64,000 nt of DNA from a bacterium (lineage in GTDB: Bacteria > AUK180), in the NCBI GenBank assembly GCA_023144005.1, contig JAGLGN010000032.1:5606-69605 (forward strand), in the 5' to 3' direction. This document shows positions 1 to 18,164 of this stretch, piece by piece. The translations under genes and the position numbers were made by a program. Numbering within the stretch: the first letter of the stretch is position 1; every line of letters starts with the position of its first letter. The notes under the pieces are model-generated. The model made no database searches and was not told where the DNA came from. It was given only the letters and a program-made list of their open reading frames with translations.

Positions 1-566
1 CGGCACTTAGGACAGAGCACTACAAACATATCATCTCTTTTGTCAAAAGTAATGCTTCTGCTCGCATCATCGACTATGCCTAATTTCTTCAATTTCTCAT
101 TAAGCAGGCCAAGGTTCGCCGGCTGTTTTTCACCGAGTGAGTCAAGCATCCACAAGATATGATCGCGGGTAGACAGTATCTCTCCACACTCCTCACAAAC
201 AACAAGTTCAAATTCCTTCGCTGTGTGAAGATCATCCCTTGAAAATACCGCGAGTTCAAATTCCGGCACCATCTTGACGCCATCCTTTGTTGTGCATACC
301 CTTTCACATTCGCCGCACATGATACAATGATCTAAATGCCATATGACCTGTCTCTTTTTGCCTTCCGCGTCATTTATTTCTTCGATCGCCTCAGAAGGAC
401 ACCAATTTACACAGCCGCCGCAGCCGATACAACTGTCCTGCGGTTCTGGCTTCCCTTTAAAGCGGGGATGTATCGTAGCGGGCTTAAACGGGTATCTCGT
501 TGTTGCGGGACGGCTGAAAAGGGACTTAACAGCTTCTCTCAACTCTCTTAGTTTTGGCAGCCACAT
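1..566 (-). CDS. 4Fe-4S ferredoxin-like subunit (NuoI/HycF/MbhN-like), 3' partial at the window edge; not in the supplied ORF track because no stop falls inside the window
   Basis: Manual translation of the minus strand from ATG at 566-564, 1 nt after the mrpG stop, is open to position 1. It gives MWLPKLRELREAVKSLFSRPATTRYPFKP...CIGCGGCVNWCP...CIMCGECERVCT, i.e. two CxxCxxCxxxCP [4Fe-4S] motifs and a TxxYP motif typical of NuoI-type subunits. AAGGAG RBS lies 9 nt upstream. Confidence 0.75.
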   Translation of the reverse strand, partial: MWLPKLRELREAVKSLFSRPATTRYPFKPATIHPRFKGKPEPQDSCIGCGGCVNWCPSEAIEEINDAEGKKRQVIWHLDHCIMCGECERVCTTKDGVKMVPEFELAVFSRDDLHTAKEFELVVCEECGEILSTRDHILWMLDSLGEKQPANLGLLNEKLKKLGIVDDASRSITFDKRDDMFVVLCPKC

Positions 567-567
567 A

Positions 568-900
568 CTATTTACTCTCCTTATCCTTGTACTTGTCGCA
601 AACACTTTTCTTCCAGAGCTTCACTCCGGATTTGTATGCTCCCCGCGCAAGCGCGTGGGCGCCTGTCGGCGAGGTTACAAGAATAAATACCATACATATC
701 AGCGCCTTGACACCAAGCGGGTTGAACCCTACTATGACGACAACGCCGATTAAAACAAAGCAGATCCCCAGGGTAACGCACTTTGTCGCTGCCTGCAGAC
801 GGCAATAAACATCAGGCATACGCAGTAGGCCGATACAGCCGAAGAGATTGAAGAGAACTCCAATACCGATTATTATGTATCCTATTATATTATTCATCAA
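568..900 (-). CDS. mrpG: Mrp/Mnh antiporter subunit G (MbhC-like)
   Basis: 110 aa, 3 TM. MMNNIIGYIIIGIGVLFNLFGCIGLLRMPDVYCRLQAATK matches the MnhG N-terminal signature. Confidence 0.85.
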   Translation of the reverse strand: MMNNIIGYIIIGIGVLFNLFGCIGLLRMPDVYCRLQAATKCVTLGICFVLIGVVVIVGFNPLGVKALICMVFILVTSPTGAHALARGAYKSGVKLWKKSVCDKYKDKESK

Positions 901-1153
901 AACTCTTCCCCTCCAGATGCTTCGCCAGAGCGATAGTGCCCAAAAAGGAGATCAGGGCCCACGCGATGGCGATATTCATATAAAAGTCCTTCCCTGTTTC
1001 AACGGCGATCAAGGCGGTAAATCCCACCACGACTATCCCGAGAATATCAATAGCGACAACCCTGTCAGGAACAGTCGGGCCTCTCGCTATACGATAAAGG
1101 CAAAGAAAGCAGCATATCAGCAACACTACAAAGAATAGCAATTCGATGATCAT
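890..1153 (-). CDS. mrpF: Mrp/Mnh antiporter subunit F
   Basis: 87 aa. The ARGPTVPDRVVAIDILG motif is typical of MnhF. Overlaps mrpG by 11 nt. Confidence 0.85.
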   Translation of the reverse strand: MIIELLFFVVLLICCFLCLYRIARGPTVPDRVVAIDILGIVVVGFTALIAVETGKDFYMNIAIAWALISFLGTIALAKHLEGKSFDE

Positions 1154-1635
1154 CCGAACACCTTCATTAAATACTTCTCAAATTTTTCAACAATCTCTTT
1201 GCTTGCAAGATCCACATCATCTGATTTCACATTCAACCAGTGTATATAGATATATTCCCCTTCGATATCCACCGAGAGTGTTCCCGGGGTCAGGGTTATC
1301 GAATTACAGAGAACTGACCTCCCAGACCGTGATTTCAATTTCGTCTTCACCTTCACAATGCCGGGATGTATCGGAAGATCGGGATGCAGGACACGGTACA
1401 TGACGTCCAGATTTGCCAGTATCAAATAATATGTGAATACCGGAATATAGACCAGGAACCAGAACAAGCGGTCTATATGCCATAGCCGTTTGTAGTTCTC
1501 AACAAATTCCTTTCCGAAGAGCAGCGCTACTATCAAAGCAACAAAAAACCCAAGTATCAATGTCTGCAGATCAAGAGGCAGCACCAGAAGGATCCAGATA
1601 ATATACGAAATAAAAAAGAGTGTAAACCTTTTCAT
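1150..1635 (-). CDS. mrpE: Mrp/Mnh antiporter subunit E
   Basis: 161 aa. N-terminal TM region and an SITLTPGTLSVD motif characteristic of MnhE. Confidence 0.8.
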   Translation of the reverse strand: MKRFTLFFISYIIWILLVLPLDLQTLILGFFVALIVALLFGKEFVENYKRLWHIDRLFWFLVYIPVFTYYLILANLDVMYRVLHPDLPIHPGIVKVKTKLKSRSGRSVLCNSITLTPGTLSVDIEGEYIYIHWLNVKSDDVDLASKEIVEKFEKYLMKVFG

Positions 1636-3107
1636 TTTATCACCAGCGCCTTATATGTATCGGCATTTAAAATCACTTCAACGGCTGGAGTCAATACCGC
1701 ATCTCGTAATTGAGGGATCAGCAGGAAAGAGGTGGCTAAACATAAGATCGCCAGGATTATCATACTGACAGACATGAAAAATGGTGATTCCTTGATACTC
1801 TTATAACTCTCCTTCAATGACCCGAAAAACGCATATCTTTGCATCTTCATGTAATAGGCAAGGGTAAAAATGCTTCCAGCGATCGCCCAGAACGCAAAGA
1901 TCGTATGCCCCGACTGAATACATGCGATAATTATCAGAAGTTTTGAGAAAAACCCGTTGAAAGGAGGCATTCCCGATATACTGAGCGAGGCGATCAGAGA
2001 CGTTCCTCCGGTTATCGGCATTACTTTGTTCAGCCCACCCATTTCATCAAGATTTCTGGTGCCAAGCCTGTGATAGACCGAACCCGAATTCATAAAGAGC
2101 AGGGATTTAAAGACCGAATGGTTCACCAAGTGGAACAAAGCCGCAAGAATACCGAGTTTCGTTCCCAAGCCGATACCGAGAATAATGTACCCGATCTGGG
2201 ATATTGAACTATAAGCGAGCAGCCTTTTCATATCCATCTGTCCAAGAGCCAGTAACCCTCCCACCATAATGGAGATTAGCCCCATGTAAGCGAGCATATT
2301 TCCCCCGTTGAATCCGAAAATATTGTACATCACACGGATCATCGCATATAGTCCAAGCGTTTTGATCACGACGCCGCTGAGCATTGCGGATATCGGTGCA
2401 GGGGCAGCCGGATGGGCATCCGGTAGCCAGGCATGGAACGGTATGATCGCCGCCTTTACCGAAAATGCGGCAATAAATAGAAAGAGCGTGAACTTCAAGA
2501 GAATATTGAATTCCGAATTTGCGATCGCTTCACTGATATAGGCCATATTCAATACACCGAACTGTGAATATAAAAGGGCTATCGCAAGAAGTATGAAAGT
2601 GGACGCGATCCCGCCCATGACCATATACTTGAACGATGCTTCCAGCTCGTCAGCTTCCGTTCCGAAACCGACCAGAGCATATGACGCTATTGACGCGATC
2701 TCAATAAAAACGAAGAGGTTGAAAAAGTCTCCAGATAGAAGCACTCCGTTCATTCCCGCAAGCATCAGCAGAAAGAGCGCGTAATAATAATTATTAGCGG
2801 TGTAACGCCTCATATAATTAATCGAGAACAATGTAGCTGTAAAAGCTATCAGGTTCACTATGGACAGCATCAATCCGCTGAGACCGTCAAGAACCAGATT
2901 TATTCCCAGTGGAGGAACCCATTTTCCGATCACATACATTCCCGATTTATTAAACATGAATATCGTCATAATAAAAAGTGCCAATGTGATCACATTTGCA
3001 AGGATCTCGCTGATGACACGAACCTTATTCCTGGTCAGCACATTTAAGAACACGACCAGAAACGCGCCGGCAAGCGGTATTAATACAAAATACGGTAGAG
3101 TATTCAT
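1632..3107 (-). CDS. mrpD: Mrp antiporter subunit D / NuoN-NuoM-like proton-pumping subunit (MbhH-like)
   Basis: 491 aa polytopic membrane protein with the conserved NuoLMN-family core (WLPDAHPAAPAPISAML...). Confidence 0.85.
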   Translation of the reverse strand: MNTLPYFVLIPLAGAFLVVFLNVLTRNKVRVISEILANVITLALFIMTIFMFNKSGMYVIGKWVPPLGINLVLDGLSGLMLSIVNLIAFTATLFSINYMRRYTANNYYYALFLLMLAGMNGVLLSGDFFNLFVFIEIASIASYALVGFGTEADELEASFKYMVMGGIASTFILLAIALLYSQFGVLNMAYISEAIANSEFNILLKFTLFLFIAAFSVKAAIIPFHAWLPDAHPAAPAPISAMLSGVVIKTLGLYAMIRVMYNIFGFNGGNMLAYMGLISIMVGGLLALGQMDMKRLLAYSSISQIGYIILGIGLGTKLGILAALFHLVNHSVFKSLLFMNSGSVYHRLGTRNLDEMGGLNKVMPITGGTSLIASLSISGMPPFNGFFSKLLIIIACIQSGHTIFAFWAIAGSIFTLAYYMKMQRYAFFGSLKESYKSIKESPFFMSVSMIILAILCLATSFLLIPQLRDAVLTPAVEVILNADTYKALVIK

Positions 3108-3451
3108 CCCTTCAACCTTTTTATTTCCGTTATATCAAAGGTGCCGAACCTCTCATAGATCCTGATAGCTACTGCTACCATCAAAGCCGTCACAGCAAGG
3201 CCTATTACAATGGATGTCAGCACAAGCGCTTGAGGAAGCGGGTCCACACTGCTGGCAAGAAACTCATCTAATCGCATCGACTTTGTCATTATCGGAGCGA
3301 TGCCATTGTTCTTATAACCGAGAAGGATCAAGAACAAATTGACTGCATTCTCCATAATAATGAACCCGAGCACGATCTTTATAAGGTTCTTTTTGCAGAA
3401 GATCCCGTACAATCCAATAAAAAACAATATTAAGCAGAGAATATAAATCAT
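3104..3451 (-). CDS. mrpC: Mrp antiporter subunit C (NuoK-like)
   Basis: 115 aa, 3 TM. MIYILCLILFFIGLYGIF...ENAVNLFLILLGY is the NuoK/MnhC pattern. Confidence 0.85.
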   Translation of the reverse strand: MIYILCLILFFIGLYGIFCKKNLIKIVLGFIIMENAVNLFLILLGYKNNGIAPIMTKSMRLDEFLASSVDPLPQALVLTSIVIGLAVTALMVAVAIRIYERFGTFDITEIKRLKG

Positions 3452-3930
3452 TTGTCTTTCTCCGTTTTTGATATGTCCTCATCAAGGATGACTTTATGAG
3501 TAGACAGGACATAGAAGACAAGGAACAATCCCGCCATCACCTTGAGTGCTATCGCGACATTAGATATTGGAATCGTTCCGCCGCTTAGAAATGTAAAGGG
3601 TGTGCCGCCAAATTTCTGATGAAGGAAATTCGCAAAGAACCCACCACCGTAATAGATACCCAGCCATGCTACCGCAATAAAGAGCAAAGCACCAAAGGAC
3701 TCTACCAAAGTGGTTCTCGTCCTTGGAAAGAGTTTATCCGTTCTCTCTTTTCCGAAAGAAAGCATGATGAGGATAAAGCTTGCTGCCATTATCACGCCTC
3801 CAGCAAATCCGCCGCCGGGAGTCAGATGTCCGAAAAGAACGATATAACATCCGAATAGAAAGATAAACCCTTCGATCCAACAGCAAACTGATTTAACTAT
3901 TTCACTTAATCCGCTTTTGTTATTAGTCAT
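3448..3930 (-). CDS. mrpB: Mrp antiporter subunit B (MnhB domain)
   Basis: 160 aa. HLTPGGGFAGGVIMAASFIL is the MnhB-domain signature. Confidence 0.75.
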   Translation of the reverse strand: MTNNKSGLSEIVKSVCCWIEGFIFLFGCYIVLFGHLTPGGGFAGGVIMAASFILIMLSFGKERTDKLFPRTRTTLVESFGALLFIAVAWLGIYYGGGFFANFLHQKFGGTPFTFLSGGTIPISNVAIALKVMAGLFLVFYVLSTHKVILDEDISKTEKDK

Positions 3931-4447
3931 TTTTCGCTTTTCTCCTCAGAAGAACCACAGCCCCAAGAATTGCCGTGAACAGAACGGTAGCTTCTCCCAG
4001 TGTATCGTATGCCCTGTAGTCAAGGATCACACTGGTTACAATATTGGCAGACCCGGTCTCCTTCAATCCGTTTGCCAGATAATGGGGCGCTACTTTGCTC
4101 AAATAATTGCCGAACTCAGGCAGAAGATCCATTGCCTTAGAAGCGAACATAAAGAGCAGAAGAAGGAGCACCATACATATGGCAAAGGGGAAGAATTGCC
4201 GGATATTTTTCACCAGATGAACATCCACGGCTATTGTCGCTCTGATCAATATCACAAGCGTCAGAATTTCAATGATAACCTGAATGATCGCAATATCCGG
4301 TGCCCTCAATAAAAGGAAAACAACGGACAGCATGAATCCTACCGCGCCAATCGAAACAACTGAAGACAAAAGATTTTTCGCTTCAAGTGCGATTAATGCG
4401 GCAAGCAACATAAAAAGAATCAAAATATAAATTATTACATGAACCAT
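3923..4447 (-). CDS. MnhB-related membrane subunit (MrpA C-terminal domain-like / DUF4040-type, MbhD/E-like)
   Basis: 174 aa, multi-TM. VTSVILDYRAYDTLGEATVLFTA is the MnhB/MrpA C-terminal domain motif. Confidence 0.6.
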   Translation of the reverse strand: MVHVIIYILILFMLLAALIALEAKNLLSSVVSIGAVGFMLSVVFLLLRAPDIAIIQVIIEILTLVILIRATIAVDVHLVKNIRQFFPFAICMVLLLLLFMFASKAMDLLPEFGNYLSKVAPHYLANGLKETGSANIVTSVILDYRAYDTLGEATVLFTAILGAVVLLRRKAKND

Positions 4448-6186
4448 ATTACCACCAGTATTATGACTCCGCCTGCAAGTATCCAGGACAGGTAGTTGGA
4501 CAATACACCATTATGCAAATATCTTAGCAATTTAATTATATAAAAAGCCATTGCTTTTAGAACTTCGTAAAGGTCAAAGATCTTCTTCGCCGCCAATCCG
4601 TAAATAAATTTGAAGGGTTGGCCATTCTCAATTCCTTCGTAGAAGTCCGCTCCTGAAATATGCATATCCGGCCTGAGCCCTTCTCCGCCGGCAAAGCCCT
4701 TTACACGGCGGATCTTGATCCTTGATATAAGGAAGATCAATGCTCCGAGGACGAGGCCTACTACGATCAGCAGCATTGCCATTTTCGGATGCCATAGGCC
4801 TGTTAGATCAAGATTTCCATACATTGGTTTGATAAAAAGATCAAAGGCGAATACACCCAGAACAATACAGGAAAGAGCCAGAATGATCTGAGGAAAGACA
4901 AGGGAGAATTTCTCCTTGAACTTTTTCTCTGTTCCTTTTGGATACTTCTTCGCGCCAAGGAATAGCGCATGCATCAGCTTCATAAATGAAGCCAGCGTCA
5001 AGGCGGAGCCGAAGAGGGCGGCGAGCAGACAAAGTATTGAAAGGAACGGATATTGTTCAGCGGTAGCGGCCAATACTCCCTGATAGATCAACCACTTTGA
5101 AAAGAACCCGTTCAATGGAGGAAGTCCGGAAATCGCAAAAGAGGCGATAAGCATACTCGTGAACGTGATCGGAAGGTATTTCGCCATGCCTCCCAATTTA
5201 TCCAGATGATCGGTTTTGCTGACCTTCTCAACCTGACCGGTACCGAGAAAGAGACAGGACTTATAGATCGAATTATTTATCATATGGAAGAGACCTCCGG
5301 CAATACCCAGAGGATTTCCAGTTCCGATACCTAGAACCATGTATCCTACCTGAGAGATCGCATGATAGGACAGAAGTTTTTTCGCCGTATGCTGTGTCAG
5401 AGCCATAAATACAGCGCATATGATCGTTATTGACCCGATAAGCATTACACTTATTTTCACGACCGGAGGAATGGTGACGATAGAGAATATCCTCGCCAGA
5501 AGATAAATACCAAGTAGTTTATCTAAAGAAGCGGGCATAAAAGCTGTCACCGGAGGTGGGGCTTTATCCGCGCATTCCGGTATCCACGTATGAAAAGGCA
5601 TATTTCCCGCTTTGGCAAATGCCGCAGCGGCAATACAGATAAATGCTATCATCGACCAAGTTGAAGAAAGGATGCCGAATGATCCCGTCAGCCGGAATAA
5701 TACAGCAACACCCAGTATCAGGAGAGAATCACTTCCTCCGAGTATGATCAGGGTTTTCTTCGCGGCAAGATTAGCGCCCGAGTTAAATTGCATCATCAGG
5801 TAAAGGGTAATTCCCGAAATACCCCAGAATATGATCAAGACGATCCAGTTCGCGCTCAATATTATGCCGTATGCTGAAGCCAATGTCAGGAAAAAGTAAG
5901 AAAAATACTTATTCAACTTCTTCTTAATGAAACCTGCGGAGTAAATGGAAAGTACCAATCCGAAGAATCCTATAAAGAAAAAGACAAGTTTGGTCAAATT
6001 ATCCCATAAGATCCAAGCTGTATATTTCTCGGGAATGTTCGGGTTGAAAAGCAGGTACACGCCGATCACGATATTAGCGAACGCTAATATCGGTGCAATA
6101 ACTCTCAACGGCTTTTTCCAGTCAGGAGTAATAAAAAGGACAAAGGCTACGATCAGATTAAAAATGATTGGCAGAAAGATATTCAT
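4435..6186 (-). CDS. mrpA: NuoL/MrpA-like antiporter-type membrane subunit
   Basis: 583 aa polytopic protein with the NuoL-family core (FHTWIPECADKAPPPVTAFMPASLDK, HAISQVGYMVLGIG). Confidence 0.8.
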   Translation of the reverse strand: MNIFLPIIFNLIVAFVLFITPDWKKPLRVIAPILAFANIVIGVYLLFNPNIPEKYTAWILWDNLTKLVFFFIGFFGLVLSIYSAGFIKKKLNKYFSYFFLTLASAYGIILSANWIVLIIFWGISGITLYLMMQFNSGANLAAKKTLIILGGSDSLLILGVAVLFRLTGSFGILSSTWSMIAFICIAAAAFAKAGNMPFHTWIPECADKAPPPVTAFMPASLDKLLGIYLLARIFSIVTIPPVVKISVMLIGSITIICAVFMALTQHTAKKLLSYHAISQVGYMVLGIGTGNPLGIAGGLFHMINNSIYKSCLFLGTGQVEKVSKTDHLDKLGGMAKYLPITFTSMLIASFAISGLPPLNGFFSKWLIYQGVLAATAEQYPFLSILCLLAALFGSALTLASFMKLMHALFLGAKKYPKGTEKKFKEKFSLVFPQIILALSCIVLGVFAFDLFIKPMYGNLDLTGLWHPKMAMLLIVVGLVLGALIFLISRIKIRRVKGFAGGEGLRPDMHISGADFYEGIENGQPFKFIYGLAAKKIFDLYEVLKAMAFYIIKLLRYLHNGVLSNYLSWILAGGVIILVVIWFM

Positions 6187-7868
6187 CTCAATTCCCCCCG
6201 TAATCTTTTTGTTTTTTCTTCGGACAATCTAAGCAGTTCTTCCCAATTGTATTTAACATTTCCGTTCTCGACCGCCTGCATTCTTTCGGTGCAGCAATAA
6301 CATGGGTCAACAGCGGCAAGTGTTATTGCGGCATCCGACACATCACCGCCGACAGCCGCCAATTCATTTGAAAGCACATTCATATAAGAAGGAGCCCTTA
6401 TCTTATGCCTTACAGGAGTATTTCCACCATCGCTTCTGACATAATGCCATACCTCTCCACGGGGAGCCTCATATCTTCCGATACCTTCTCCCGGCGGGAT
6501 CTCGCGGACTTCCTCCCAGATATTCCCTTCTTTCAAACCTTTAAGTTTATCGAGACATTGAGTTATTATCTTTACCGATTCATACATTTCAAGAACACGG
6601 CAGACCGTCTTGTCGAAAATATCTCCGTTCTGACATACGATCACATCCCATTCAACCAATTGATAAGCACCATTGAGGATATCTATTTTCCTGATGTCCT
6701 GATCCAATCCGCTTGGGCGGGCAGTGGGGCCTGTAACACAATAATTGATCGCCTCTTCCTTGCTCAATACTCCGATGTTCTTCGTACGGGCATGAATAAC
6801 AGGGTCATCAATTACGGCACCCTTGAAGAGGTCAAAGATCGGGACCAATGACGCCGTCTTCTCCTTCATCGCGTCGATCTCCGAATTGAAAATATCCTTT
6901 CTCACACCGCCGATACGCATCATCGCATAGTGATTTCGGTTTCCGGAGATCTGTTCACAAAGGTCAAGAACTGTCTCGCGGTATTTCCATGCCCACATCC
7001 AGACCGTATTATAGCCCAGGAAATGTCCGGCAAGGCCAAGCCAGAGAAGATGTGAATGTACCCTTTCTAGCTCTGCGATAACGGTTCTGACATATTTCGC
7101 CCTTAAAGGGATCTCCAAACCCAGAAGGTCCTCAACGGCGTTGACATACGCATAAGGGTGAGAACATGAACAGATGCCGCAGATCCTTTCGACCAGAAAT
7201 GTGACCTGATCCCAATGTTTTCCTTCTGCGATCTTTTCTATCCCTCGGTGATTGTATCCGAGATTGATATTGAGGTCAATTACCTTTTCACCCTGAACCA
7301 TAAGTTCGAAGAACTCCGGTTCTTCCTGAAGAGGATGATAAGGGCCGATGGGAATTATTTTTGTTTTCTTGCCGTTCTTTGTTAATTCTTCGATCTTAAT
7401 ATTCGGACGGCGGCAGGAATCTTCTCCCCGGGGCTCTTTTCTTCCGTATTCATAATCCTTTCTTAGAGGGTATACACCTTCCGGCCATGTCGGGTCAAGA
7501 AGTAGCCTGCTGGTATCAGCAGCGCCCGTGAATTCAATACCCAGAAGTTCTCGCATTTCCCTTTCGATCCATGTCGCGCCTTTGATAATATCAGCGATCG
7601 ACGGGATCTGCCCCTTGTCACGGTCTGTAAAAACACGAAGAGAATACACAACGCCCGTCTTATCATCTGAAAAATGATAGAGGACCTCCATATTTTTCAC
7701 ATTGTCCAATCCTGTGGCAATACAGAAACGCAACTCCAATTTCCGGAACAAAAGCTCCGCAGCGGACCTGAGATCCTTCTTATCGATCTCGATATAATGG
7801 CGCTTGGAGCTCTTCTCTTCCCATTTAATGATCTTGCCTTTTAATATGTCTTTTACTTTATTAACCAT
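6183..7868 (-). CDS. Group 4 [NiFe]-hydrogenase large subunit, fused NuoC-like N-terminus plus NuoD-like catalytic domain (HycE/HyfG-like)
   Basis: 561 aa. NuoC-like N-terminal roughly 150 aa. L1 motif RICGICSCSH and C-terminal L2 motif DPCYCCTER supply the four Ni-Fe ligand cysteines, so this is a true hydrogenase and not complex I. Confidence 0.9.
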   Translation of the reverse strand: MVNKVKDILKGKIIKWEEKSSKRHYIEIDKKDLRSAAELLFRKLELRFCIATGLDNVKNMEVLYHFSDDKTGVVYSLRVFTDRDKGQIPSIADIIKGATWIEREMRELLGIEFTGAADTSRLLLDPTWPEGVYPLRKDYEYGRKEPRGEDSCRRPNIKIEELTKNGKKTKIIPIGPYHPLQEEPEFFELMVQGEKVIDLNINLGYNHRGIEKIAEGKHWDQVTFLVERICGICSCSHPYAYVNAVEDLLGLEIPLRAKYVRTVIAELERVHSHLLWLGLAGHFLGYNTVWMWAWKYRETVLDLCEQISGNRNHYAMMRIGGVRKDIFNSEIDAMKEKTASLVPIFDLFKGAVIDDPVIHARTKNIGVLSKEEAINYCVTGPTARPSGLDQDIRKIDILNGAYQLVEWDVIVCQNGDIFDKTVCRVLEMYESVKIITQCLDKLKGLKEGNIWEEVREIPPGEGIGRYEAPRGEVWHYVRSDGGNTPVRHKIRAPSYMNVLSNELAAVGGDVSDAAITLAAVDPCYCCTERMQAVENGNVKYNWEELLRLSEEKTKRLRGELR

Positions 7869-7870
7869 AA

Positions 7871-8293
7871 TTATATCTCTCCACGCAATTTCTTAACAAC
7901 CTTGACAACACCGTCAATTATTGCCTCGGGACGAGGGGGGCACCCGGGGATATACGCGGTTACCGGAATTATCTCATCTACAGGGATCACTCTATTGTAA
8001 GAAACCTTGAACATTCCCATTGAAGATGCGCAGCTTCCGAAGGCGATCACCGCGAGAGGTTTTGGCGCCTGATCATAAAGGTCTTTCAAAAATTCGGCAC
8101 CCTTTCTGTTCATCATTCCCGAAACAAGCATCGCGTCGGCATGTTTTATTGAACCGACCAGTTTAACTCCGAAGCGCTCCACATCAAATCTGGGCGTAAG
8201 GACATCAAGTATCTCTATGTCGCAATTATTACACGCCGCAGAAGCAAAATGAAAAACCCAGATCGATTTTGACAATATCTTTAATTTGTTCAT
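7871..8293 (-). CDS. [NiFe]-hydrogenase small subunit (NuoB-like, HycG/EchC/MbhJ-type)
   Basis: Start moved to the internal ATG at 8293 (MNKLKIL...), which gives an ATGA overlap with the upstream gene stop. Cys ligands (CNNCD, GSCA, GCPPRPE) for the proximal [4Fe-4S] cluster are present. Confidence 0.85.
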   Translation of the reverse strand: MNKLKILSKSIWVFHFASAACNNCDIEILDVLTPRFDVERFGVKLVGSIKHADAMLVSGMMNRKGAEFLKDLYDQAPKPLAVIAFGSCASSMGMFKVSYNRVIPVDEIIPVTAYIPGCPPRPEAIIDGVVKVVKKLRGEI

Positions 8294-9177
8294 AGACCCA
8301 CCACCGCTAATATCAAAGCTACCAGACTCAAAGGAAACAAGATAAACCAGAAGAGTTTCAGGCATTGCTTTACCTTTAACCTGGGATTCGTATTTTCCAC
8401 TAAGATCACAATCACCAGAAGGGCTACGTATTTAAAAACATTAACACCGCCCCAAAATATCGAAGAAATGAAAAACGGCAAAGTGGCAAGCAGGATATAC
8501 TGCCCCATTTTGAAAAATCCCAGAAGCGGGCCGGAATATTCTATATATGCCCCGGCCATGATCTCGGTCTCCGCTTCAGCTATATCAAATGGAACCCTTC
8601 CCAGTTTTGCCTGCATGACAAAGAGTGCGAGAACAGAGGCGATACCTCCCGAGTAAGAATACATCACCGGAGGTTTATTCATGATATTCACCAGGCTCAA
8701 TTCGCCACCGGTCTTGACCCAGATAACGGCGATCGTCATCCAGAACACCAGTTCATATGAAAGGACCAGCTTTATCTCCCTTGAGGCGCCCAAAGAAGCC
8801 AGCGGATTAGCGCTGGCGGCACCTGCGAGGATCAGACATATCGGCGGGATCGTCAGCAGGTAGACAATGACTATCAAGTCGCCCTGAAAAGCTGCATCCG
8901 GAAAGAAAAATGCCATTCCCGCATACATTGCGACCAGAGTGGCACTGACCATGAAGAGGACCGGAGTTGCCAAAAAGGTTAAGAGGTGAGCATTTTCTGG
9001 AACTACACTTTCCTTTGTAAATAATTTCAGAAGATCGTACCAAGGCTGCAGTATAGGAGGGCCTACACGCCATTGGACTCTGGCGGTAACCTTCCTCTCA
9101 ATATATGAAGCGACCATTCCTACGATCAAAGCAAAAAGGAACCCGGGGAAAACAAGGAAATAGAAGATAGTTTTCAT
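8290..9177 (-). CDS. NuoH-like membrane subunit (HycD/EchB/MbhM-type)
   Basis: 295 aa, 8 TM. VASYIERKVTARVQWRVGPP is the NuoH/formate hydrogenlyase subunit 4 signature. Confidence 0.85.
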   Translation of the reverse strand: MKTIFYFLVFPGFLFALIVGMVASYIERKVTARVQWRVGPPILQPWYDLLKLFTKESVVPENAHLLTFLATPVLFMVSATLVAMYAGMAFFFPDAAFQGDLIVIVYLLTIPPICLILAGAASANPLASLGASREIKLVLSYELVFWMTIAVIWVKTGGELSLVNIMNKPPVMYSYSGGIASVLALFVMQAKLGRVPFDIAEAETEIMAGAYIEYSGPLLGFFKMGQYILLATLPFFISSIFWGGVNVFKYVALLVIVILVENTNPRLKVKQCLKLFWFILFPLSLVALILAVVGL

Positions 9178-9650
9178 TCTGTCAACCCCAATTGCTTTTT
9201 CCAGTGAACCCCTTTCACAAAAAGGCCTTCTTTTATCATGTAAATATTCTCCTCGATATTTTCTTTGAAATCACCGATAGTGATCGCACCTTCGGGGCAT
9301 GATGTTACGCAAATAGGATCCCTTTCAGGGCAGAGATCACATGTGGATGTCTTGAATTCAACCGTCTCAAGCGTATTCACTCCGAACGGGCAGGCTAAAA
9401 GGCATGTTTTACAGGAAGTGCATAGGAAACTTGACCGGTGAAGATCATCATCCTTTTTCAAAGCGTCCGTAGGGCAACTGATAACACAGGGAGAATCTTC
9501 ACAATGGCGGCAATAGACCTTCCGTATCGCCTCTTCGAGTATTGATTTGAAACCCGTTTTCTGATCATGAAGAGGATAATTGCAATCCGCTACGCAATTA
9601 TTACAACTGTAACATTTTTCAAGATCAATTAATATCATTTTCATTCCCAA
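9174..9650 (-). CDS. Polyferredoxin with four [4Fe-4S] motifs (HycB/HyfA-like electron-transfer subunit)
   Basis: 158 aa with four Cys clusters: CYSCNNCVADC, CRHCEDSPCVISCP, CTSCKTCLLACP, CDLCPERDPICVTSCP. Confidence 0.8.
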   Translation of the reverse strand: MGMKMILIDLEKCYSCNNCVADCNYPLHDQKTGFKSILEEAIRKVYCRHCEDSPCVISCPTDALKKDDDLHRSSFLCTSCKTCLLACPFGVNTLETVEFKTSTCDLCPERDPICVTSCPEGAITIGDFKENIEENIYMIKEGLFVKGVHWKKQLGLTE

Positions 9651-10450
9651 ATCCCTTCAATGTCCTTGATCAGGCTGTACTTGAAAACCGGACCGTCTTT
9701 ACAAGCAAAATATTTACCTACCCCGCAATGGCCGCATTTACCTATGCCGCAGCTCATATTCTTTTCCATGGAAAGATAAATACTTTCCGGAGCAAAGCCG
9801 AGCTCCAGGAGTTTGAATGTGCCGAATTTCATCATTATAGGCGGGCCGCAAACGACAGCGACACCGTTTTTGGGATTTACGCTATAATCATCAAATAAAC
9901 AGGTCACCACTCCCTCTTTCTCCTTCCAGTCATTATCCGCCGCATCAACGGTCCTGCAGATCTCGGCACCGCGCTTTTTCCAGCTCTCGAACTGATCCTT
10001 ATAAACTATGTCAGCAGGATTTTTCGCGCCGTATAAGAGAGTTATCTTTTCGTACTTGTCTTTTTCATCCAGAAGCGTCAGAAGTAATGAACGCAGTGGA
10101 GCCATCCCGACACCGCCGCCCAGTAAGAGCACTTCTTTCCCTTCAAACTCATTGAGCGGATAAGAAGTTCCCAATGGCCCTCTGATCCCCACAGTATCGT
10201 TTGCTTTCAATTCATGAAGCTTCTCTGTAACTCGCCCGGCCTTCATTATCGTCACTTCAAACGGACCCTTGGCAAATTGAGAAGAGGATGGAGTAAATGG
10301 AGATTCCCCTATCTTCGGCATGGTAAGTTGAATGAATTGACCGGTAGCAAAAGAAAATTTCTTTTCCGGCTCCAGGATAAATGTTTTGATCAGCGAGGTC
10401 TCTTCGATAACCTTAATAACCTTACAATTGATCGTCTTATAAGGATCCAT
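9641..10450 (-). CDS. FNR-fold FAD/NAD(P)H-binding oxidoreductase with C-terminal [2Fe-2S] (sulfhydrogenase gamma HydG / AsrB / PyrK-like)
   Basis: Start trimmed to the ATG at 10450 (MDPYKTINCKV), which has a GGAGG RBS. Ferredoxin-NADP reductase-like barrel plus Rossmann (LLLGGGVGMAPL). C-terminal CGIGKCGHCGVG...C cluster motif. Confidence 0.8.
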   Translation of the reverse strand: MDPYKTINCKVIKVIEETSLIKTFILEPEKKFSFATGQFIQLTMPKIGESPFTPSSSQFAKGPFEVTIMKAGRVTEKLHELKANDTVGIRGPLGTSYPLNEFEGKEVLLLGGGVGMAPLRSLLLTLLDEKDKYEKITLLYGAKNPADIVYKDQFESWKKRGAEICRTVDAADNDWKEKEGVVTCLFDDYSVNPKNGVAVVCGPPIMMKFGTFKLLELGFAPESIYLSMEKNMSCGIGKCGHCGVGKYFACKDGPVFKYSLIKDIEGIWE

Positions 10451-10452
10451 AA

Positions 10453-11430
10453 TTATTTCGCCTCCGCAACTTTTATCAGCACTTCTTGGAAATCTATCTT
10501 CCCTTGACAGCCGGCAGTGCACCTTCCGCAGCCGGTACAGCCGTTAAAACCCTGCATTTGGGGCCTGTAAACGAATTTACAGGTAAATCTGTGTTTGAAC
10601 CGTTCTATAAGATCTTCCCTGGGATTAGCTCCGCCCGCGACACGCGCATAGCTCTTGAGCTGACAGCTGTCCATATACCTGATCTTGTTCTCATCCCCCT
10701 CTGACAGGAAGAAACAGAAACAACTGGAACAAACATTTGTGCAACTGCTGCAGCTGACACAGGTTTTGCCATATTCCTTAAATACATCGCTGTGCTTCTC
10801 GATCTTGCCCTCAAGGTCCTTGAGATCCAATACTTTGTTCCCGTTGAACTTCTTCAACTCTTCTTCAAAAGAGGTCCTGTGAGAGCTCATCGACTTTTCC
10901 TGTTCGGATCGGGCAGATTCAAAAAATCCGCCGTGGTCTTTTAAGAATTTCGCGCCGGCATCCGAACCAACAGAAACCAGATACCCATTCTCCACAATGG
11001 AGAAGTTCAGATCGAAATTCTCTGTAGCCCACGGCTGATCTCCCAGGACCGTACAGAAACAATCCGGGTGATGTGTGGTACAATCGGCCGAAAAGACAAG
11101 GACATCTTTTCTGAAATGGGGATCTTCGGGATCTTCCAGATAGATCTTCTTCAGAAGGGAAAGTCCTTTTGTGTCACAGCCGCGTGCGCCAAAAATGATC
11201 CTTGGCTTATCCTTTTTCTTTTCAACAAGATTCTCTTGGGGGGAATAGAAAAAGTACTTAAGAGGAAGGACCGTCCTGTGACCTTCGAATGTAAACTCCG
11301 AATCGGCTTCCATTCTTGCCCAATCCCAGCTTTCCTCTTGCCTGCGCGGATAAAAGATCTCGTAGTCGGGGATCAATTTTTTCGTCAGGGCTTTCACTTT
11401 TTCATTACTGATAAATTTTTGTTCCATCAC
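10453..11430 (-). CDS. FeS protein of the HydB / AsrA family (sulfhydrogenase beta-like)
   Basis: 325 aa. Cys-rich CVSCSSCTNVCSSCFC and C-terminal CTGCGRCTAGCQG motifs. First gene of the operon, with a 420-bp noncoding region upstream. Confidence 0.75.
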   Translation of the reverse strand: MMEQKFISNEKVKALTKKLIPDYEIFYPRRQEESWDWARMEADSEFTFEGHRTVLPLKYFFYSPQENLVEKKKDKPRIIFGARGCDTKGLSLLKKIYLEDPEDPHFRKDVLVFSADCTTHHPDCFCTVLGDQPWATENFDLNFSIVENGYLVSVGSDAGAKFLKDHGGFFESARSEQEKSMSSHRTSFEEELKKFNGNKVLDLKDLEGKIEKHSDVFKEYGKTCVSCSSCTNVCSSCFCFFLSEGDENKIRYMDSCQLKSYARVAGGANPREDLIERFKHRFTCKFVYRPQMQGFNGCTGCGRCTAGCQGKIDFQEVLIKVAEAK

Positions 11431-11592: not shown

Positions 11593-11621
11593 ATAATACC
11601 ACATTCTTTATTCAATGTCAA
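11593..11621 (-). promoter_or_regulatory. Candidate sigma-70 promoter for the hydrogenase operon (TTGACA-17-TATTAT on minus strand)
   Basis: Minus strand reads TTGACA (11621-11616), a 17-nt spacer, then TATTAT (11598-11593), about 160 nt upstream of the hydB-like start. Confidence 0.3.
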
Positions 11622-17361: not shown

Positions 17362-17371
17362 CTTCACTCTC

Positions 17372-18163: not shown

Positions 18164-18164
18164 A

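What the first reader, a model, noticed from the sequence alone, without database searches (positions are those of the whole stretch)
1..11430. Mrp-linked group 4 [NiFe] hydrogenase operon headed by a HydB/HydG-like NAD(P)H module
Fifteen co-oriented, overlapping or tightly spaced genes run HydB-like, HydG-like, HycB-like, NuoH-like, NuoB-like small subunit, NuoCD-fused large subunit, mrpA-B-B'-C-D-E-F-G, then a NuoI-like ferredoxin. The large subunit keeps both Ni-Fe cysteine pairs, so this is a real H2-evolving or H2-oxidising enzyme on a complete antiporter module.

The electron-input module is not a formate dehydrogenase or CO dehydrogenase. It is a pair that in sulfhydrogenase/AsrAB systems carries electrons between NAD(P)H and FeS centres. 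I do not recall this subunit combination being characterised, so I cannot say it is novel. If it functions as one complex, it would couple NAD(P)H:H+ oxidoreduction to Na+/H+ translocation. That is an ion-gradient-driven route to make H2 from NAD(P)H, or the reverse, which would be valuable for a syntroph.
Basis: partly seen in the sequence, partly recalled or inferred. Interest (0 to 1): 0.8.

Follow-up and report, generated by a model that had tools for sequence, protein, structure and literature searches.

The report
NAD(P)H-module, Mrp-linked membrane [NiFe] hydrogenase operon
This is a real 16-gene operon for a membrane-bound, ion-translocating [NiFe] hydrogenase whose electron-input end is a copy of the NAD(P)H-binding beta/gamma pair of soluble sulfhydrogenases. 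The architecture is widespread in uncultured bacteria and has been noticed in metagenome papers, but it has never been tested biochemically.

Summary
Fifteen translationally coupled genes on the minus strand (11427 to 1) encode HydB-like, HydG-like, HycB-like, NuoH, NuoB, a fused NuoC-D large subunit with both Ni-Fe cysteine pairs, a full MrpA-G set and a HycF/NuoI-like ferredoxin. The operon runs past the window end into a HycI protease. A separate canonical group 3b sulfhydrogenase operon follows.

The HydB/HydG link is not accidental:
- 32 of 34 sufficiently long metagenome loci found with a HydB-like profile repeat the order.
- All 10 sampled large-subunit homologues are HydBG-linked.
- Group-4-linked HydG forms its own clade (bootstrap 79/100).
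- FAD, NAD(P) and 2Fe-2S motifs are at least 90% conserved.
- Where a formate-dehydrogenase-like subunit is present, it lacks the catalytic Cys/Sec.
- Rex genes and Rex boxes are strongly enriched upstream, including one box in the window.

The best reading is a reversible NAD(P)H:H+ oxidoreductase coupled to Na+/H+ translocation, most likely disposing of NADH as H2. This is inferred, not shown.

It is not a new architecture. Matheus Carnevali 2019 (Saganbacteria) and Meheust 2020 (Elusimicrobia, "Mbh-Mrp-oxidoreductase type") describe the architecture with function unknown. Other papers on Omnitrophota and Endomicrobium call Mrp-linked or membrane-bound hydrogenases "group 4g, ferredoxin-coupled (putative)" without mentioning a HydB/HydG module. 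Identity with this family was not tested directly.

The parts
11729..11746 (-). Rex-operator-like palindrome TTGTGAGAAAATTCACAT (2 mismatches to TTGTGAAnnnnTTCACAA) in the ftsY-hydB intergenic region
   Evidence: Only 9 of 2000 dinucleotide shuffles of the upstream region give such a site. The same box is found upstream of 16 of 70 related operons, against 0.26 expected.
11593..11621 (-). Best sigma-70-like promoter (TTGACA-17-TATTAT with extended TG), about 165 nt upstream of the first start codon
   Evidence: 11 of 12 consensus positions. This is a consensus match only.
10453..11427 (-). HydB/AsrA-like Fe-S subunit (324 aa; Fer4_22 domain plus an N-terminal Cys cluster)
   Evidence: Pfam PF17179, 2e-21. 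PDB P. furiosus SH1 beta 9nez_B, 2.7e-32. 15 invariant Cys across 30 homologues. Scores below the NCBIfam equivalog cut-offs for ShyB/HydB/AsrA.
9641..10450 (-). HydG/AsrB-like flavoprotein (269 aa; FNR-type FAD and NAD(P) domains plus a C-terminal 2Fe-2S site)
   Evidence: Pfam FAD_binding_6, NAD_binding_1 and DHODB_Fe-S_bind. SH1 gamma 9nez_C, 1.9e-60. Motifs GE.PFTPSS, GGG.G.AP.R, CGPP.M and the Cys ligands are at least 90% conserved in 70 homologues.
9174..9644 (-). HycB/CooF-like connector ferredoxin with 16 Cys in four 4Fe-4S motifs (156 aa)
   Evidence: Best PDB matches are HDCR HycB3 7qv7_A (7.8e-17) and E. coli FHL HycB 7z0s_B (1.8e-14).
8290..9177 (-). NuoH/MbhM/HycD-like membrane anchor (295 aa)
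   Evidence: PF00146, 1.2e-61.
7871..8293 (-). NuoB/HycG-like small subunit (140 aa) with CxxC...C...CPP ligands for one 4Fe-4S cluster
   Evidence: PF01058, 1e-27. NCBIfam NuoB subfamily above its cut-off. Motifs read from the translation.
6183..7868 (-). Fused NuoC-NuoD [NiFe] large subunit (561 aa) with RICGICSCSH, DPCYCCTER and a 32-residue C-terminal extension after CCTER (35 residues after the DPCYCC motif)
   Evidence: Pfam. MbhL 6cfw_L 3.7e-85 and HycE 7z0s_E 6.4e-85, with both Cys pairs aligned.
4435..6186 (-). MrpA-N/NuoL-like antiporter subunit (583 aa)
   Evidence: PF00361. NuoL 8e9g_L 5.9e-39 and MrpA 6z16_A 2e-35. The TM5 Glu aligns to Gly in that pairwise alignment.
3923..4447 (-). 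Fused MbhD/MbhE-like subunit (equivalent to the MrpA C-terminus, 174 aa)
   Evidence: PF13244 and PF20501.
3448..3930 (-). MrpB/MbhF-like subunit (160 aa)
   Evidence: PF04039, 8e-25.
3104..3451 (-). MrpC/NuoK/MbhG-like subunit (115 aa)
   Evidence: PF00420, 1.5e-27.
1632..3107 (-). MrpD/MbhH-like antiporter subunit (491 aa)
   Evidence: MbhH 6cfw_H, 4.3e-92 over the full length. Residues in the TM5 Glu and TM7/8/12 Lys motifs are identical in the alignment.
1150..1635 (-). MrpE/MbhA-like subunit (161 aa)
   Evidence: PF01899, 1.3e-39.
890..1153 (-). MrpF/MbhB-like subunit (87 aa)
   Evidence: PF04066.
568..897 (-). MrpG/MbhC-like subunit (109 aa)
   Evidence: PF03334. Start taken from the scaffold gene call.
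1..566 (-). HycF/NuoI-like 2x[4Fe-4S] subunit, truncated by the window end (188 of 198 codons)
   Evidence: The full protein from L006 matches FHL HycF 7z0s_F at 6.1e-24, against MbhN at 3.4e-12.

Best explanation
The operon encodes one membrane complex: an FHL-type peripheral arm mounted on a complete Mrp-type ion-translocating arm.

Composition:
- Peripheral arm: HycB-like wire, HycF-like subunit, NuoB-like small subunit and a fused NuoC-D [NiFe] large subunit.
- Membrane arm: NuoH plus MrpA-G.
- Input module: in place of the formate dehydrogenase of FHL or group 4b enzymes, the outer end of HycB carries a HydB/HydG pair. This pair is orthologous in type to the beta/gamma NAD(P)H:Fe-S oxidoreductase module of group 3b sulfhydrogenases.

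Proposed electron path: NAD(P)H -> FAD -> [2Fe-2S] (HydG-like) -> Fe-S clusters of HydB-like -> four [4Fe-4S] of HycB-like -> two [4Fe-4S] of HycF-like -> [4Fe-4S] of the small subunit -> Ni-Fe site -> H2.

Energetics: NAD(P)H (about -320 mV) to H+/H2 (-414 mV at 1 atm) is uphill except at very low H2. The step at the Ni-Fe/NuoH interface would therefore be paid for by Na+/H+ influx through the Mrp module. The enzyme should be reversible, with H2 -> NAD(P)+ exporting ions, near 10 Pa H2.

Physiology: Rex association suggests the usual role is disposing of excess NADH as H2 in a fermenter.

What is shown: gene content, cofactor motifs, conserved synteny, a clade-specific HydBG pair, the Rex link and the maturation protease.

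What is inferred: physical assembly of HydBG on HycB, the use of NAD(P)H, the ion coupling and the direction.
For: Anatomy and single-operon structure:
- All junctions overlap or are 1-2 nt apart. One near-consensus promoter lies upstream and there are no internal terminator-like sites.

Input module:
- HydG-like matches SH1 gamma at 1.9e-60 and HydB-like matches SH1 beta at 2.7e-32.
- FAD, NAD(P) and 2Fe-2S motifs are at least 90% conserved in 70 homologues.
- 15 Cys are invariant in HydB-like proteins.

FHL-type arm with a connector subunit:
- Best PDB matches are HycB3 and HycB, HycF and the fused large subunit HycE.

Hydrogenase and membrane arm:
- Ni-Fe ligands, a C-terminal extension and a HycI protease are present.
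- The MbhH orthologue keeps the residues of the conserved charged-residue motifs.

Conserved association:
- 64 of 64 loci have HydG next to HydB. 32 of 34 loci have HydG-HycB-NuoH-NuoB-NuoD. 23 of 31 have the full Mrp set.
- 10 of 10 sampled large-subunit homologues, down to 49% identity, are HydBG-linked.
- Group-4-linked HydG forms a clade apart from 3b-linked HydG (bootstrap 79/100).

No alternative substrate site:
- The FDH-like subunit, present in 8 of 50 loci, lacks the catalytic Cys/Sec in all 9 sequences examined.
- A soluble FDH-HydBG locus (L079) keeps it.

NADH sensing:
- A rex gene lies directly upstream in 22 loci.
- Rex boxes occur upstream in 16 of 70 regions against 0.26 expected. 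The window's own box has p of about 0.005.

Maturation:
- hypFDE genes are adjacent in at least 15 related loci.
Against: - There is no biochemical or structural evidence for any member of this family. Assembly of HydBG onto HycB is inferred only from operon structure.
- Rex also controls ferredoxin-dependent hydrogenases in other bacteria, so Rex linkage does not prove that NADH is the substrate.
- No rex gene was found in the 64 kb window. The window's box lies about 110 nt upstream of the best predicted -35 rather than over it.
- The literature assigns Mrp-linked or membrane-bound hydrogenases of Omnitrophota and Endomicrobium (phyla and genera whose MAGs carry this family here) to group 4g, with ferredoxin as the putative donor (PMC5037454, PMC8542988, PMC11257099).
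- HydB-like and HydG-like proteins score far below the NCBIfam equivalog cut-offs, so the function may differ from SH1/AsrAB.
- NADH versus NADPH specificity could not be determined.
- The MrpA-like subunit appears to lack the TM5 Glu.
- The 80 metagenome loci are the best hits of a profile built from group-4-linked sequences, so the synteny percentages describe this clade, not all HydB homologues.
Confidence: 0.6

Rival explanations
1. Same complex and same substrates, but the physiological direction is H2 uptake. H2 reduces NAD(P)+ (about -18 kJ/mol under standard conditions) and the Mrp arm exports Na+/H+. This would give an energy-conserving H2:NAD(P)+ oxidoreductase, for example for acetogenic or H2-scavenging lifestyles.
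For: - The reaction is exergonic in this direction at high H2.
- Meheust 2020 finds the 'Mbh-Mrp-oxidoreductase type' in Elusimicrobia lineages predicted to be acetogens.
- Group 3b enzymes with the same beta/gamma module are bidirectional (established knowledge).
- The full Mrp set with two antiporter-like subunits suits pumping.
Against: - Rex-type control (derepression at high NADH) fits an NADH-consuming role better than an NADH-producing one.
- The window's context is fermentative (EtfAB/acyl-CoA dehydrogenase, peptidases), with no Wood-Ljungdahl genes seen in the 64 kb.
- Group 4 enzymes characterised so far are H2 evolvers (PMC5037454).
Confidence: 0.25
2. Ferredoxin is still the main donor, as assumed for group 4g and Mbh. 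HydBG would be a side branch on the same Fe-S wire. It would let the complex either co-oxidise NAD(P)H with reduced ferredoxin (confurcation-like H2 production) or pass ferredoxin electrons to NAD(P)+ (an Mbx/Nfn-like function).
For: - The literature annotates Mrp-linked or membrane-bound hydrogenases in Omnitrophota and Endomicrobium as ferredoxin-coupled.
- The polyferredoxin HycB-like and HycF-like subunits could dock ferredoxin as MbhN does.
- Relatives also encode Rnf (PMC8542988).
Against: - HydG is a PyrK/NfnA-type simple FAD/2Fe-2S protein, not a known bifurcating flavoprotein.
- An uncoupled ferredoxin-to-NAD(P)+ leak through the peripheral arm would waste energy.
- The peripheral arm is FHL-type, in which HycB exists to connect a dedicated input enzyme rather than free ferredoxin.
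- Strict co-inheritance of HydBG with this clade argues for an essential role rather than an accessory one.
Confidence: 0.2
3. HydB/HydG are co-transcribed but are not part of the membrane complex. They would form a soluble NAD(P)H-dependent reductase, for example for polysulfide/S0 or sulfite as proposed for sulfhydrogenase/AsrAB, or an NAD(P)H:ferredoxin oxidoreductase that only shares regulation with the hydrogenase.
For: - HydB/HydG homologues work with other partners: 3b alpha/delta, AsrC, and FDH as in L079/L083.
- P. furiosus sulfhydrogenase reduces S0 in vitro (established knowledge, cited in PMC8542988).
Against: - There is no AsrC-like sirohaem subunit or other catalytic partner in the operon.
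- The gene order HydB-HydG-HycB is fixed and translationally coupled across roughly 30-100% HydB-like sequence identity and several candidate phyla.
- HycB-like would have no partner at its distal end in an FHL-type arm.
- Sulfur reduction by SH1 is regarded as non-physiological (established knowledge).
Confidence: 0.1

Closest known systems
'Enigmatic' group 4 hydrogenase of Saganbacteria RX5A (Matheus Carnevali et al. 2019, PMC6349859) and the 'Mbh-Mrp-oxidoreductase type' of Elusimicrobia (Meheust et al. 2020, bioRxiv 10.1101/765248)
   Same: The gene set matches: asrA-like, asrB-like and cooF-like genes, group 4 NiFe subunits and Mrp antiporter-like subunits. Those authors also propose that these form an 'oxidoreductase module' of unknown function. 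Elusimicrobia MAG proteins are among the closest homologues here.
   Different: The Saganbacteria version carries a molybdopterin (FDH-like) subunit, which the window lacks. Neither paper proposes NAD(P)H-coupled ion translocation, examines the FDH active site or notes the Rex link. All of it is metagenomic description only.
Thermococcus onnurineus Fdh2-Mfh2-Mnh2 and CODH-Mch-Mnh3 (HydDB group 4b)
   Same: A modular design: a soluble input enzyme, a HycB/CooF-type wire, a group 4 hydrogenase and a full Mrp module, with Na+-coupled H2 evolution (PMC5037454 summary; established knowledge).
   Different: The input there is formate dehydrogenase or CO dehydrogenase (low-potential donors, exergonic). 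Here it is an NAD(P)H flavoprotein pair (higher potential, so uphill at high H2). No 4b reference sequences were available to test relatedness.
E. coli formate hydrogenlyase FHL-1 (group 4a, PDB 7z0s)
   Same: The peripheral arm is homologous subunit for subunit: HycB (1.8e-14), fused HycE (6.4e-85), HycF (6.1e-24) and HycG-like. The large subunit has a C-terminal extension with a HycI protease.
   Different: FHL-1 has FdhF as its input and only HycC/HycD in the membrane. The window enzyme has HydBG as input and a full MrpA-G arm.
Pyrococcus furiosus Mbh (group 4d, PDB 6cfw)
   Same: An Mrp-derived membrane arm. Matches are MbhH 4.3e-92 and MbhL 3.7e-85, plus MbhD/E, F, G and A-C equivalents.
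   Different: Mbh takes electrons directly from ferredoxin at MbhN. It has no HycB-like or HydBG subunits and only one antiporter-like subunit. Its MbhK and MbhL are separate proteins.
Pyrococcus furiosus sulfhydrogenase I (group 3b, PDB 9nez)
   Same: The beta and gamma subunits are the closest solved relatives of the first two genes. In SH1 they link NADPH to the hydrogenase Fe-S chain.
   Different: SH1 is soluble and has a group 3 alpha/delta dimer with no ion coupling. The window genome has its own separate 3b operon next door. Its beta and gamma are only 28% and 36% identical to the group-4-linked pair.
Respiratory complex I (NuoEFG N-module on a NuoBCDHI-LMN core)
   Same: The functional logic is the same: an NADH-oxidising flavoprotein module feeds an Fe-S chain into a NuoBCD/H junction coupled to antiporter-like subunits.
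   Different: The NADH module here is unrelated to NuoEFG (FNR/PyrK-type FAD rather than NuoF FMN). The acceptor is H+ at an intact Ni-Fe site, not quinone.

Membership tests
Group 4 (energy-converting) [NiFe] hydrogenase | Large subunit with the N-terminal RxCGxCxxxH and C-terminal DPCxxC Ni-Fe ligand motifs | tested here: met
   RICGICSCSH and DPCYCC align to the ligands of MbhL and HycE. Both motifs are present in every complete large subunit of the HydBG-linked operons.
Group 4 (energy-converting) [NiFe] hydrogenase | NuoB-type small subunit with a single 4Fe-4S cluster, plus NuoC, NuoH and NuoI homologues | tested here: met
   Pfam and NCBIfam hits. Cys ligands were read in the translation.
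Group 4 (energy-converting) [NiFe] hydrogenase | Maturation: a C-terminal extension cleaved by a HycI-type protease, and hyp genes | tested here: inconclusive
   A 32-residue extension after CCTER and an overlapping HycI gene are present. No hypF/D/E was found in the 64 kb window, although these genes are adjacent in at least 15 related loci. The rest of the genome was not examined.
Mrp-linked group 4 hydrogenases (Mbh/Mfh type) | Homologues of MrpA-G in the same operon as the hydrogenase | tested here: met
   PF00361 x2, MbhD/E, MnhB, NuoK-like, MNHE, MrpF and MnhG.
Mrp-linked group 4 hydrogenases (Mbh/Mfh type) | Conserved charged residues of antiporter-like subunits (TM5 Glu; TM7, TM8 and TM12 Lys) | tested here: inconclusive
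   The 491-aa MbhH orthologue keeps them in the alignment with 6cfw_H. The 583-aa NuoL/MrpA-like subunit keeps the Lys residues, but its TM5 Glu aligns to Gly (one pairwise alignment only).
HydDB subgroup 4g (ferredoxin-coupled, putative) | Placement of the large subunit by the HydDB classifier or a reference phylogeny | not testable with these tools
   No HydDB classifier or reference set was available. Papers report group 4g enzymes in Omnitrophota MAGs and in the genus Endomicrobium. The large subunit is 65-77% identical over the NuoD part to proteins from Omnitrophica and Endomicrobiia MAGs. Identity with the published 4g sequences was not checked.
Sulfhydrogenase beta/gamma - AsrA/AsrB family | Gamma/AsrB: an FNR-type FAD and NAD(P) domain with a C-terminal 2Fe-2S site. 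Beta/AsrA: a Fer4_22 dicluster domain plus an N-terminal Cys cluster | tested here: met
Sulfhydrogenase beta/gamma - AsrA/AsrB family | Equivalog-level identity with HydB/ShyB/AsrA or HydG/ShyC/AsrB (NCBIfam cut-offs) | tested here: not met
   Scores of 166, 119 and 111 bits against cut-offs of 690, 750 and 323; and 209, 195 and 209 bits against 650, 600 and 289. The NJ tree puts group-4-linked HydG in its own clade. It is a distinct subfamily.
Sulfhydrogenase beta/gamma - AsrA/AsrB family | Partnered with group 3b alpha/delta or with AsrC | tested here: not met
   The operon partners are group 4 and Mrp subunits. A separate 3b operon with its own beta/gamma pair lies downstream.
Formate- or CO-linked hydrogenlyases (groups 4a/4b/4c) | A catalytic formate dehydrogenase or CO dehydrogenase subunit in the operon | tested here: not met
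   None in the window operon. FDH-like subunits in related loci lack the catalytic Cys/Sec.
'Mbh-Mrp-oxidoreductase' / Saganbacteria enigmatic type (metagenomic description) | asrA-like, asrB-like and cooF-like genes preceding group 4 and Mrp genes | tested here: met
   Gene order. Description.
'Mbh-Mrp-oxidoreductase' / Saganbacteria enigmatic type (metagenomic description) | A molybdopterin oxidoreductase subunit in the module | tested here: not met
   Absent from the window. Present in only 8 of 50 related loci.
Complex I | A NuoE/F/G NADH-dehydrogenase module and a quinone-reducing NuoD without Ni-Fe ligands | tested here: not met
   No NuoEFG homologues are present and the Ni-Fe ligands are intact.

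The most novel reading that the evidence does not exclude
A large family is widespread across candidate phyla (Omnitrophota, Elusimicrobiota, WOR-3, Planctomycetota, Ca. Calescamantes and others). In the literature, hydrogenases of such phyla are filed as 'ferredoxin-coupled group 4g/Mbh'.

Under this reading, the family is really an ion-motive NAD(P)H:proton oxidoreductase. That would be a third route from NADH to H2, beside electron confurcation and reverse Rnf plus Ech. It would also be a natural analogue of complex I that uses H+ instead of quinone.

It would have arisen when an FHL-like ancestor swapped its formate dehydrogenase for the beta/gamma module of a soluble hydrogenase. This would be an independent 'N-module' acquisition, relevant to how complex I evolved.
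Probability: 0.5. Interest if true: 0.8.

Novelty: new member of a known kind. Interest (0 to 1): 0.6.

Why it matters
If the complex works as inferred, it is a single-enzyme way to vent NADH as H2 by spending, or near equilibrium harvesting, a Na+/H+ gradient.

That would matter in three ways:
- Metabolic models of many uncultured anaerobes would change. Omnitrophota, Elusimicrobiota, WOR-3 and others are currently modelled with a ferredoxin-dependent Mbh.
- It would add a new coupling site to anaerobic bioenergetics.
- It would give a living example of a group 4 hydrogenase acquiring an NAD(P)H-input module independently of NuoEFG. This bears on the origin of complex I.

It also offers a target for NAD(P)H-driven H2 production. 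None of this is demonstrated. What this analysis adds to the published descriptions is the following:
- the scale and strictness of the HydBG association;
- the clade structure of HydG;
- the degenerate state of the FDH-like subunit;
- the Rex linkage.

Tried and rejected
Synteny was therefore taken from the look-up of encoding contigs and one metagenome scan.
- A search for a paper on the SH1 cryo-EM structure (9nez) found nothing. Cofactor assignments for beta/gamma therefore rest on motifs.
- Searches for any biochemical characterisation found only metagenomic mentions.
- HydDB subgroup classification could not be run. PDB offers only 4a and 4d references, which score equally.
- An Rfam scan of the whole window found only two tRNAs and no leader RNA upstream of the operon.
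- Structure prediction was not run. The tool returns single-chain confidence only, which cannot show a HydB-HycB interface.
- My first synteny script used an out-of-frame NuoD query. This was corrected.
- 'Operon split at 9650' is rejected: the genes overlap by 4 nt and there is no terminator-like site.
- 'Recent duplication of the neighbouring 3b beta/gamma' is rejected: identity is only 28% and 36%, and the pairs fall in separate clades.
- 'Formate-driven FHL' is rejected: there is no FDH in the window, and relatives carry only degenerate FDH relics.

Full report
**1. What is in the window**

The region 1-11430 carries fifteen co-oriented ORFs on the minus strand. Pfam and NCBIfam assign them, in transcription order, as follows:
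- a Fer4_22 Fe-S protein (10453-11427);
- an FNR-type FAD/NAD(P) protein with a PyrK-type 2Fe-2S tail (9641-10450);
- a 16-Cys polyferredoxin (9174-9644);
- NuoH (8290-9177);
- NuoB (7871-8293);
- a fused NuoC-NuoD protein carrying a NiFeSe_Hases segment (6183-7868);
- a NuoL/MrpA-like antiporter subunit (4435-6186);
- fused MbhD/E (3923-4447);
- MnhB (3448-3930);
- NuoK/MrpC (3104-3451);
- MrpD (1632-3107);
- MrpE (1150-1635);
- MrpF (890-1153);
- MrpG (568-897);
- a NuoI-type 2x[4Fe-4S] protein that runs off the window's left end (1-566).

Every junction is a 1-2 nt gap or a 4-14 nt overlap. The terminator scan finds nothing at any junction and no excess over shuffles. The best promoter-like site in the 13 kb (TTGACA-17-TATTAT with an extended TG) sits in the 420-bp ftsY-hydB spacer.

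**2. The operon continues beyond the window**

An exact-protein look-up retrieved the same 473-kb scaffold (L006). It shows three things:
- The NuoI-like gene is 198 codons long.
- An overlapping HycI endopeptidase gene follows it.
- After a 300-bp gap comes a complete group 3b sulfhydrogenase operon: HydB 349 aa, HydG 278 aa, small subunit 250 aa, large subunit 441 aa, and a second HycI-type protease.

The genome therefore has two beta/gamma pairs. They share only 28% (HydB) and 36% (HydG) identity, so they are not recent duplicates.

**3. It is a real hydrogenase**

The large subunit's RICGICSCSH and DPCYCCTER align with the Ni-Fe ligands of P. furiosus MbhL (6cfw_L, 3.7e-85) and E. coli HycE (7z0s_E, 6.4e-85). 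A 32-residue extension follows the CCTER motif, as in protease-processed HycE. The small subunit has the CxxC...C...CPP ligands.

No hyp genes lie in the window. However, hypF/D/E are adjacent to the homologous operon in at least 15 other loci.

**4. The peripheral arm is FHL-type and the membrane arm is Mrp-type**

The polyferredoxin's best solved relatives are HDCR HycB3 and FHL HycB. The NuoI-like protein matches FHL HycF (6.1e-24) much better than MbhN (3.4e-12). The large subunit is NuoC-D fused, like HycE.

The 491-aa subunit is a full-length orthologue of MbhH (4.3e-92), and the residues of the conserved Glu/Lys motifs are preserved. The 583-aa subunit is NuoL/MrpA-like. In the one pairwise alignment available, its TM5 Glu aligns to Gly.

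In FHL and in the Thermococcus 4b enzymes, a HycB/CooF-type subunit connects a dedicated input enzyme to the hydrogenase (established knowledge; PMC5037454). Here the only candidates for that input are the first two gene products.

**5. The first two genes**

The HydG-like protein hits P. furiosus sulfhydrogenase-1 gamma (9nez_C) at 1.9e-60. The HydB-like protein hits SH1 beta (9nez_B) at 2.7e-32. The next-best NCBIfam families are ShyB/ShyC and AsrA/AsrB, but all scores fall far below equivalog cut-offs.

Across 70 homologues, these motifs are at least 90% conserved:
- the FAD motif GE.PFTPSS, shared with SH1 gamma;
- the pyrophosphate loop GGG.G.AP.R;
- the CGPP.M motif;
- the C-terminal Cys ligands.

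Fifteen Cys are invariant among 30 HydB-like proteins of 29-64% identity. These are functional cofactor-binding proteins of the beta/gamma type, forming a subfamily of their own.

**6. The association is conserved and clade-specific**

Context look-ups of HydB-like homologues at 46%, 37% and 36% identity all show HydB-HydG-HycB-NuoH-NuoB-NuoC-NuoD-Mrp.

A metagenome scan with a HydB-like profile returned 80 loci. The counts are as follows:
- 64 of 64 loci with enough downstream sequence have HydG next to HydB.
- 32 of 34 with at least 6 kb downstream have HydG-HycB-NuoH-NuoB-NuoD.
- 23 of 31 with at least 9.5 kb have the whole Mrp set. The remainder are variants with fewer or reordered membrane subunits.

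All complete large subunits of the HydBG-linked operons in these loci keep both Ni-Fe motifs and a 34-57-residue tail.

The test also works from the other side. Ten of ten sampled large-subunit homologues (49-81% identity) share a contig or operon with HydB-like genes. An NJ tree separates group-4-linked HydG from three 3b-linked HydG sequences and from a soluble FDH-linked one. Bootstrap support is 79/100, using approximate distances.

A profile search finds 440 clusters at E<=1e-30. Every named hit among the 120 listed is a MAG: Omnitrophota, WOR-3, Elusimicrobia, Stahlbacteria, Spirochaetales, and one source label of Ca. Calescamantes for the window's own protein. There is a caveat. The 80 loci are the best hits of a profile built from this clade, so the percentages describe the clade and not all HydB homologues.

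**7. No other substrate site**

In 8 of 50 loci a molybdopterin (FDH-like) gene sits between HydG and HycB. All nine such proteins are short (469-733 aa). They keep the N-terminal 4Fe-4S motif. In alignment with an FDH-family reference, they have acidic or other residues where the catalytic Cys/Sec should be.

Soluble loci differ. In L079, where FDH-HydB-HydG occur without a hydrogenase, the motif HCARLCHAS is intact. In L083 the ORF breaks exactly at that position, which is compatible with a TGA-Sec codon.

The Mo-containing variants branch at the base of the HydG clade. The simplest history is that an FHL-like ancestor gained the beta/gamma module, its FDH then decayed to an Fe-S scaffold, and the scaffold was later lost, as in the window. 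This part is inference from a small alignment and an unbootstrapped topology.

**8. Link to NADH sensing**

A rex gene lies immediately upstream of hydB, on the same or the divergent strand, in 22 loci from at least three sequence-divergent Rex groups.

The Rex operator TTGTGAAnnnnTTCACAA (2 mismatches or fewer) occurs within 400 bp upstream of hydB in 16 of 70 regions. Dinucleotide shuffles give 0.26 +/- 0.49, with a maximum of 3.

The window has TTGTGAGAAAATTCACAT at 11729-11746. Only 9 of 2000 shuffles of its upstream region give such a site. No rex gene is in the window, and the box lies about 110 nt upstream of the best predicted -35.

Rex also regulates ferredoxin-dependent hydrogenases elsewhere (established knowledge). 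This supports a role in NADH balance but does not prove the substrate.

**9. Mechanism proposed**

Electrons would flow in this order: NAD(P)H, FAD, 2Fe-2S (HydG-like), HydB-like clusters, four HycB clusters, two HycF-like clusters, the small-subunit cluster, and finally the Ni-Fe site.

The step to H2 is uphill at standard H2 pressure by about 94 mV, or about 18 kJ/mol. It would therefore be driven by Na+/H+ influx through the Mrp arm. Near 10 Pa H2 the enzyme should be reversible.

For a fermenter, spending about one ion to vent NADH allows more acetate and ATP. The window context (EtfAB/acyl-CoA dehydrogenase at 16384-19346, and several peptidases) fits a fermenter. Nothing specifically indicates a syntroph.

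A soluble 3b enzyme lies next door, and the same adjacency occurs in L056. This suggests a two-gear arrangement for NAD(P)H/H2 exchange, but that is speculation.

I put this explanation at 0.6. The rivals are: the same chemistry run physiologically in the uptake direction; ferredoxin as the main donor with HydBG as a side branch; and HydBG as a separate soluble enzyme.

**10. Comparison with what is known**

- Matheus Carnevali et al. 2019 describe an 'enigmatic' group 4 hydrogenase in Saganbacteria RX5A. It has Mrp-like subunits, an unclassifiable molybdopterin protein, cooF, asrA-like and asrB-like genes that 'might compose an oxidoreductase module'.
- Meheust et al. 2020 name a 'Mbh-Mrp-oxidoreductase type' in Elusimicrobia and state that the oxidoreductase's function is unknown.
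- HydDB defines 4g as a loosely clustered, uncharacterised, putatively ferredoxin-coupled class.
- Mrp-linked 4g enzymes are reported in Omnitrophota, Cloacimonadota and Auribacterota, and a membrane-bound 4g enzyme in the genus Endomicrobium. In each case ferredoxin is assumed as donor.
- Endomicrobiia and Omnitrophota MAGs carry the HydBG-linked operon here. Whether the published 4g enzymes are the same was not tested.
- No paper in the searchable library reports biochemistry.

The window is therefore a further, Mo-less member of an architecture already noticed but uncharacterised. Relative to biochemically characterised enzymes (Mbh, FHL, Fdh-Mfh-Mnh, SH1), it is a distinct module combination.

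**11. Verdict**

- Interest is 0.6. The family is large, is probably mis-modelled in many MAG studies, and is directly testable.

Noticed in passing
L006:11171-16355 (same scaffold, beyond the window's left end): A HycI protease gene overlaps the end of the operon. After a 300-bp gap comes a complete group 3b sulfhydrogenase operon (HydB-HydG-small-large-HycI). A 3b operon also lies next to the HydBG-linked group 4 operon in L056.
   Followed up: partly
window 6183-7868 and large subunits in L002-L086: Most large subunits of this clade (30 of the 38 HydBG-linked rows that show the motif) have DPCYCC rather than the usual DPCxSC/DPCxAC. This places an extra Cys next to the C-terminal Ni ligand. 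Its significance is unknown.
   Followed up: no
L073:11869-12324, L066:2908-3363 (also L068, L074, L076): In one subclade an extra 151-aa ORF lies between HydG-like and HycB-like. By eye it looks like a cyclic-nucleotide-binding/Crp-type domain, and it may be a regulatory subunit. No family search was run.
   Followed up: no
L090:5763-6194, L091:1599-1976: Endomicrobiia versions of the operon carry a CBS-domain protein between HycB-like and NuoH, and have three antiporter-like subunits.
   Followed up: no
L005:2098-3552; L041, L044, L055, L063, L067, L085, L086, L088; L093:3253-4881: The FDH-like molybdopterin subunits inside HydBG-linked hydrogenase operons are short. They lack the catalytic Cys/Sec in alignment but keep the N-terminal 4Fe-4S motif, which suggests a decayed FDH kept as a scaffold or wire.
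   Followed up: partly
L079:4139-8005; L083:4696-8235: These loci have FDH-HydB-HydG without any hydrogenase. L079 has an intact HCARLCHAS active-site motif. L083 has its ORF interrupted at that position (possibly TGA-Sec) and a fused HydB~HydG protein. They are probably NAD(P)-linked formate dehydrogenases using the same beta/gamma module.
   Followed up: partly
L092:4452-5075 and 21 other loci; window 11729-11746: Rex repressor genes and Rex boxes lie directly upstream of the operon in many lineages. The window has a box but no rex gene within 64 kb.
   Followed up: yes
window 4435-6186: In the pairwise alignment with NuoL (8e9g_L), the MrpA/NuoL-like subunit has Gly where the conserved TM5 Glu is expected. 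The TM7 and TM12 Lys residues are retained.
   Followed up: no
L004:13497-13883; L092:14175-14447: Small endonuclease-like ORFs (DUF559; GIY-YIG) are inserted between genes of the hydrogenase/Mrp operon in two lineages.
   Followed up: no
L017:1-4856; L036:5188-8338: A second group-4-like cluster lies upstream of the HydBG-linked operon. In L017 its large subunit lacks both Ni-Fe motifs (Ehr/Mbx-like).
   Followed up: no
window 46476-47819 (-): A 447-aa protein combines sigma-70 regions 2, 3 and 4 with a C-terminal phosphoribosyltransferase domain. This is an unusual fusion.
   Followed up: no
window 16384-19346 (-): EtfA, a probable EtfB and an acyl-CoA dehydrogenase lie just upstream of smc/ftsY. 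This may be a bifurcating Bcd/Etf-type system, relevant to the cell's NADH/ferredoxin budget.
   Followed up: no
window 51339-52778 (-): A clostripain-family peptidase carries a Por/T9SS C-terminal sorting domain. This hints at an FCB-type secretion system in this unclassified bacterium.
   Followed up: no
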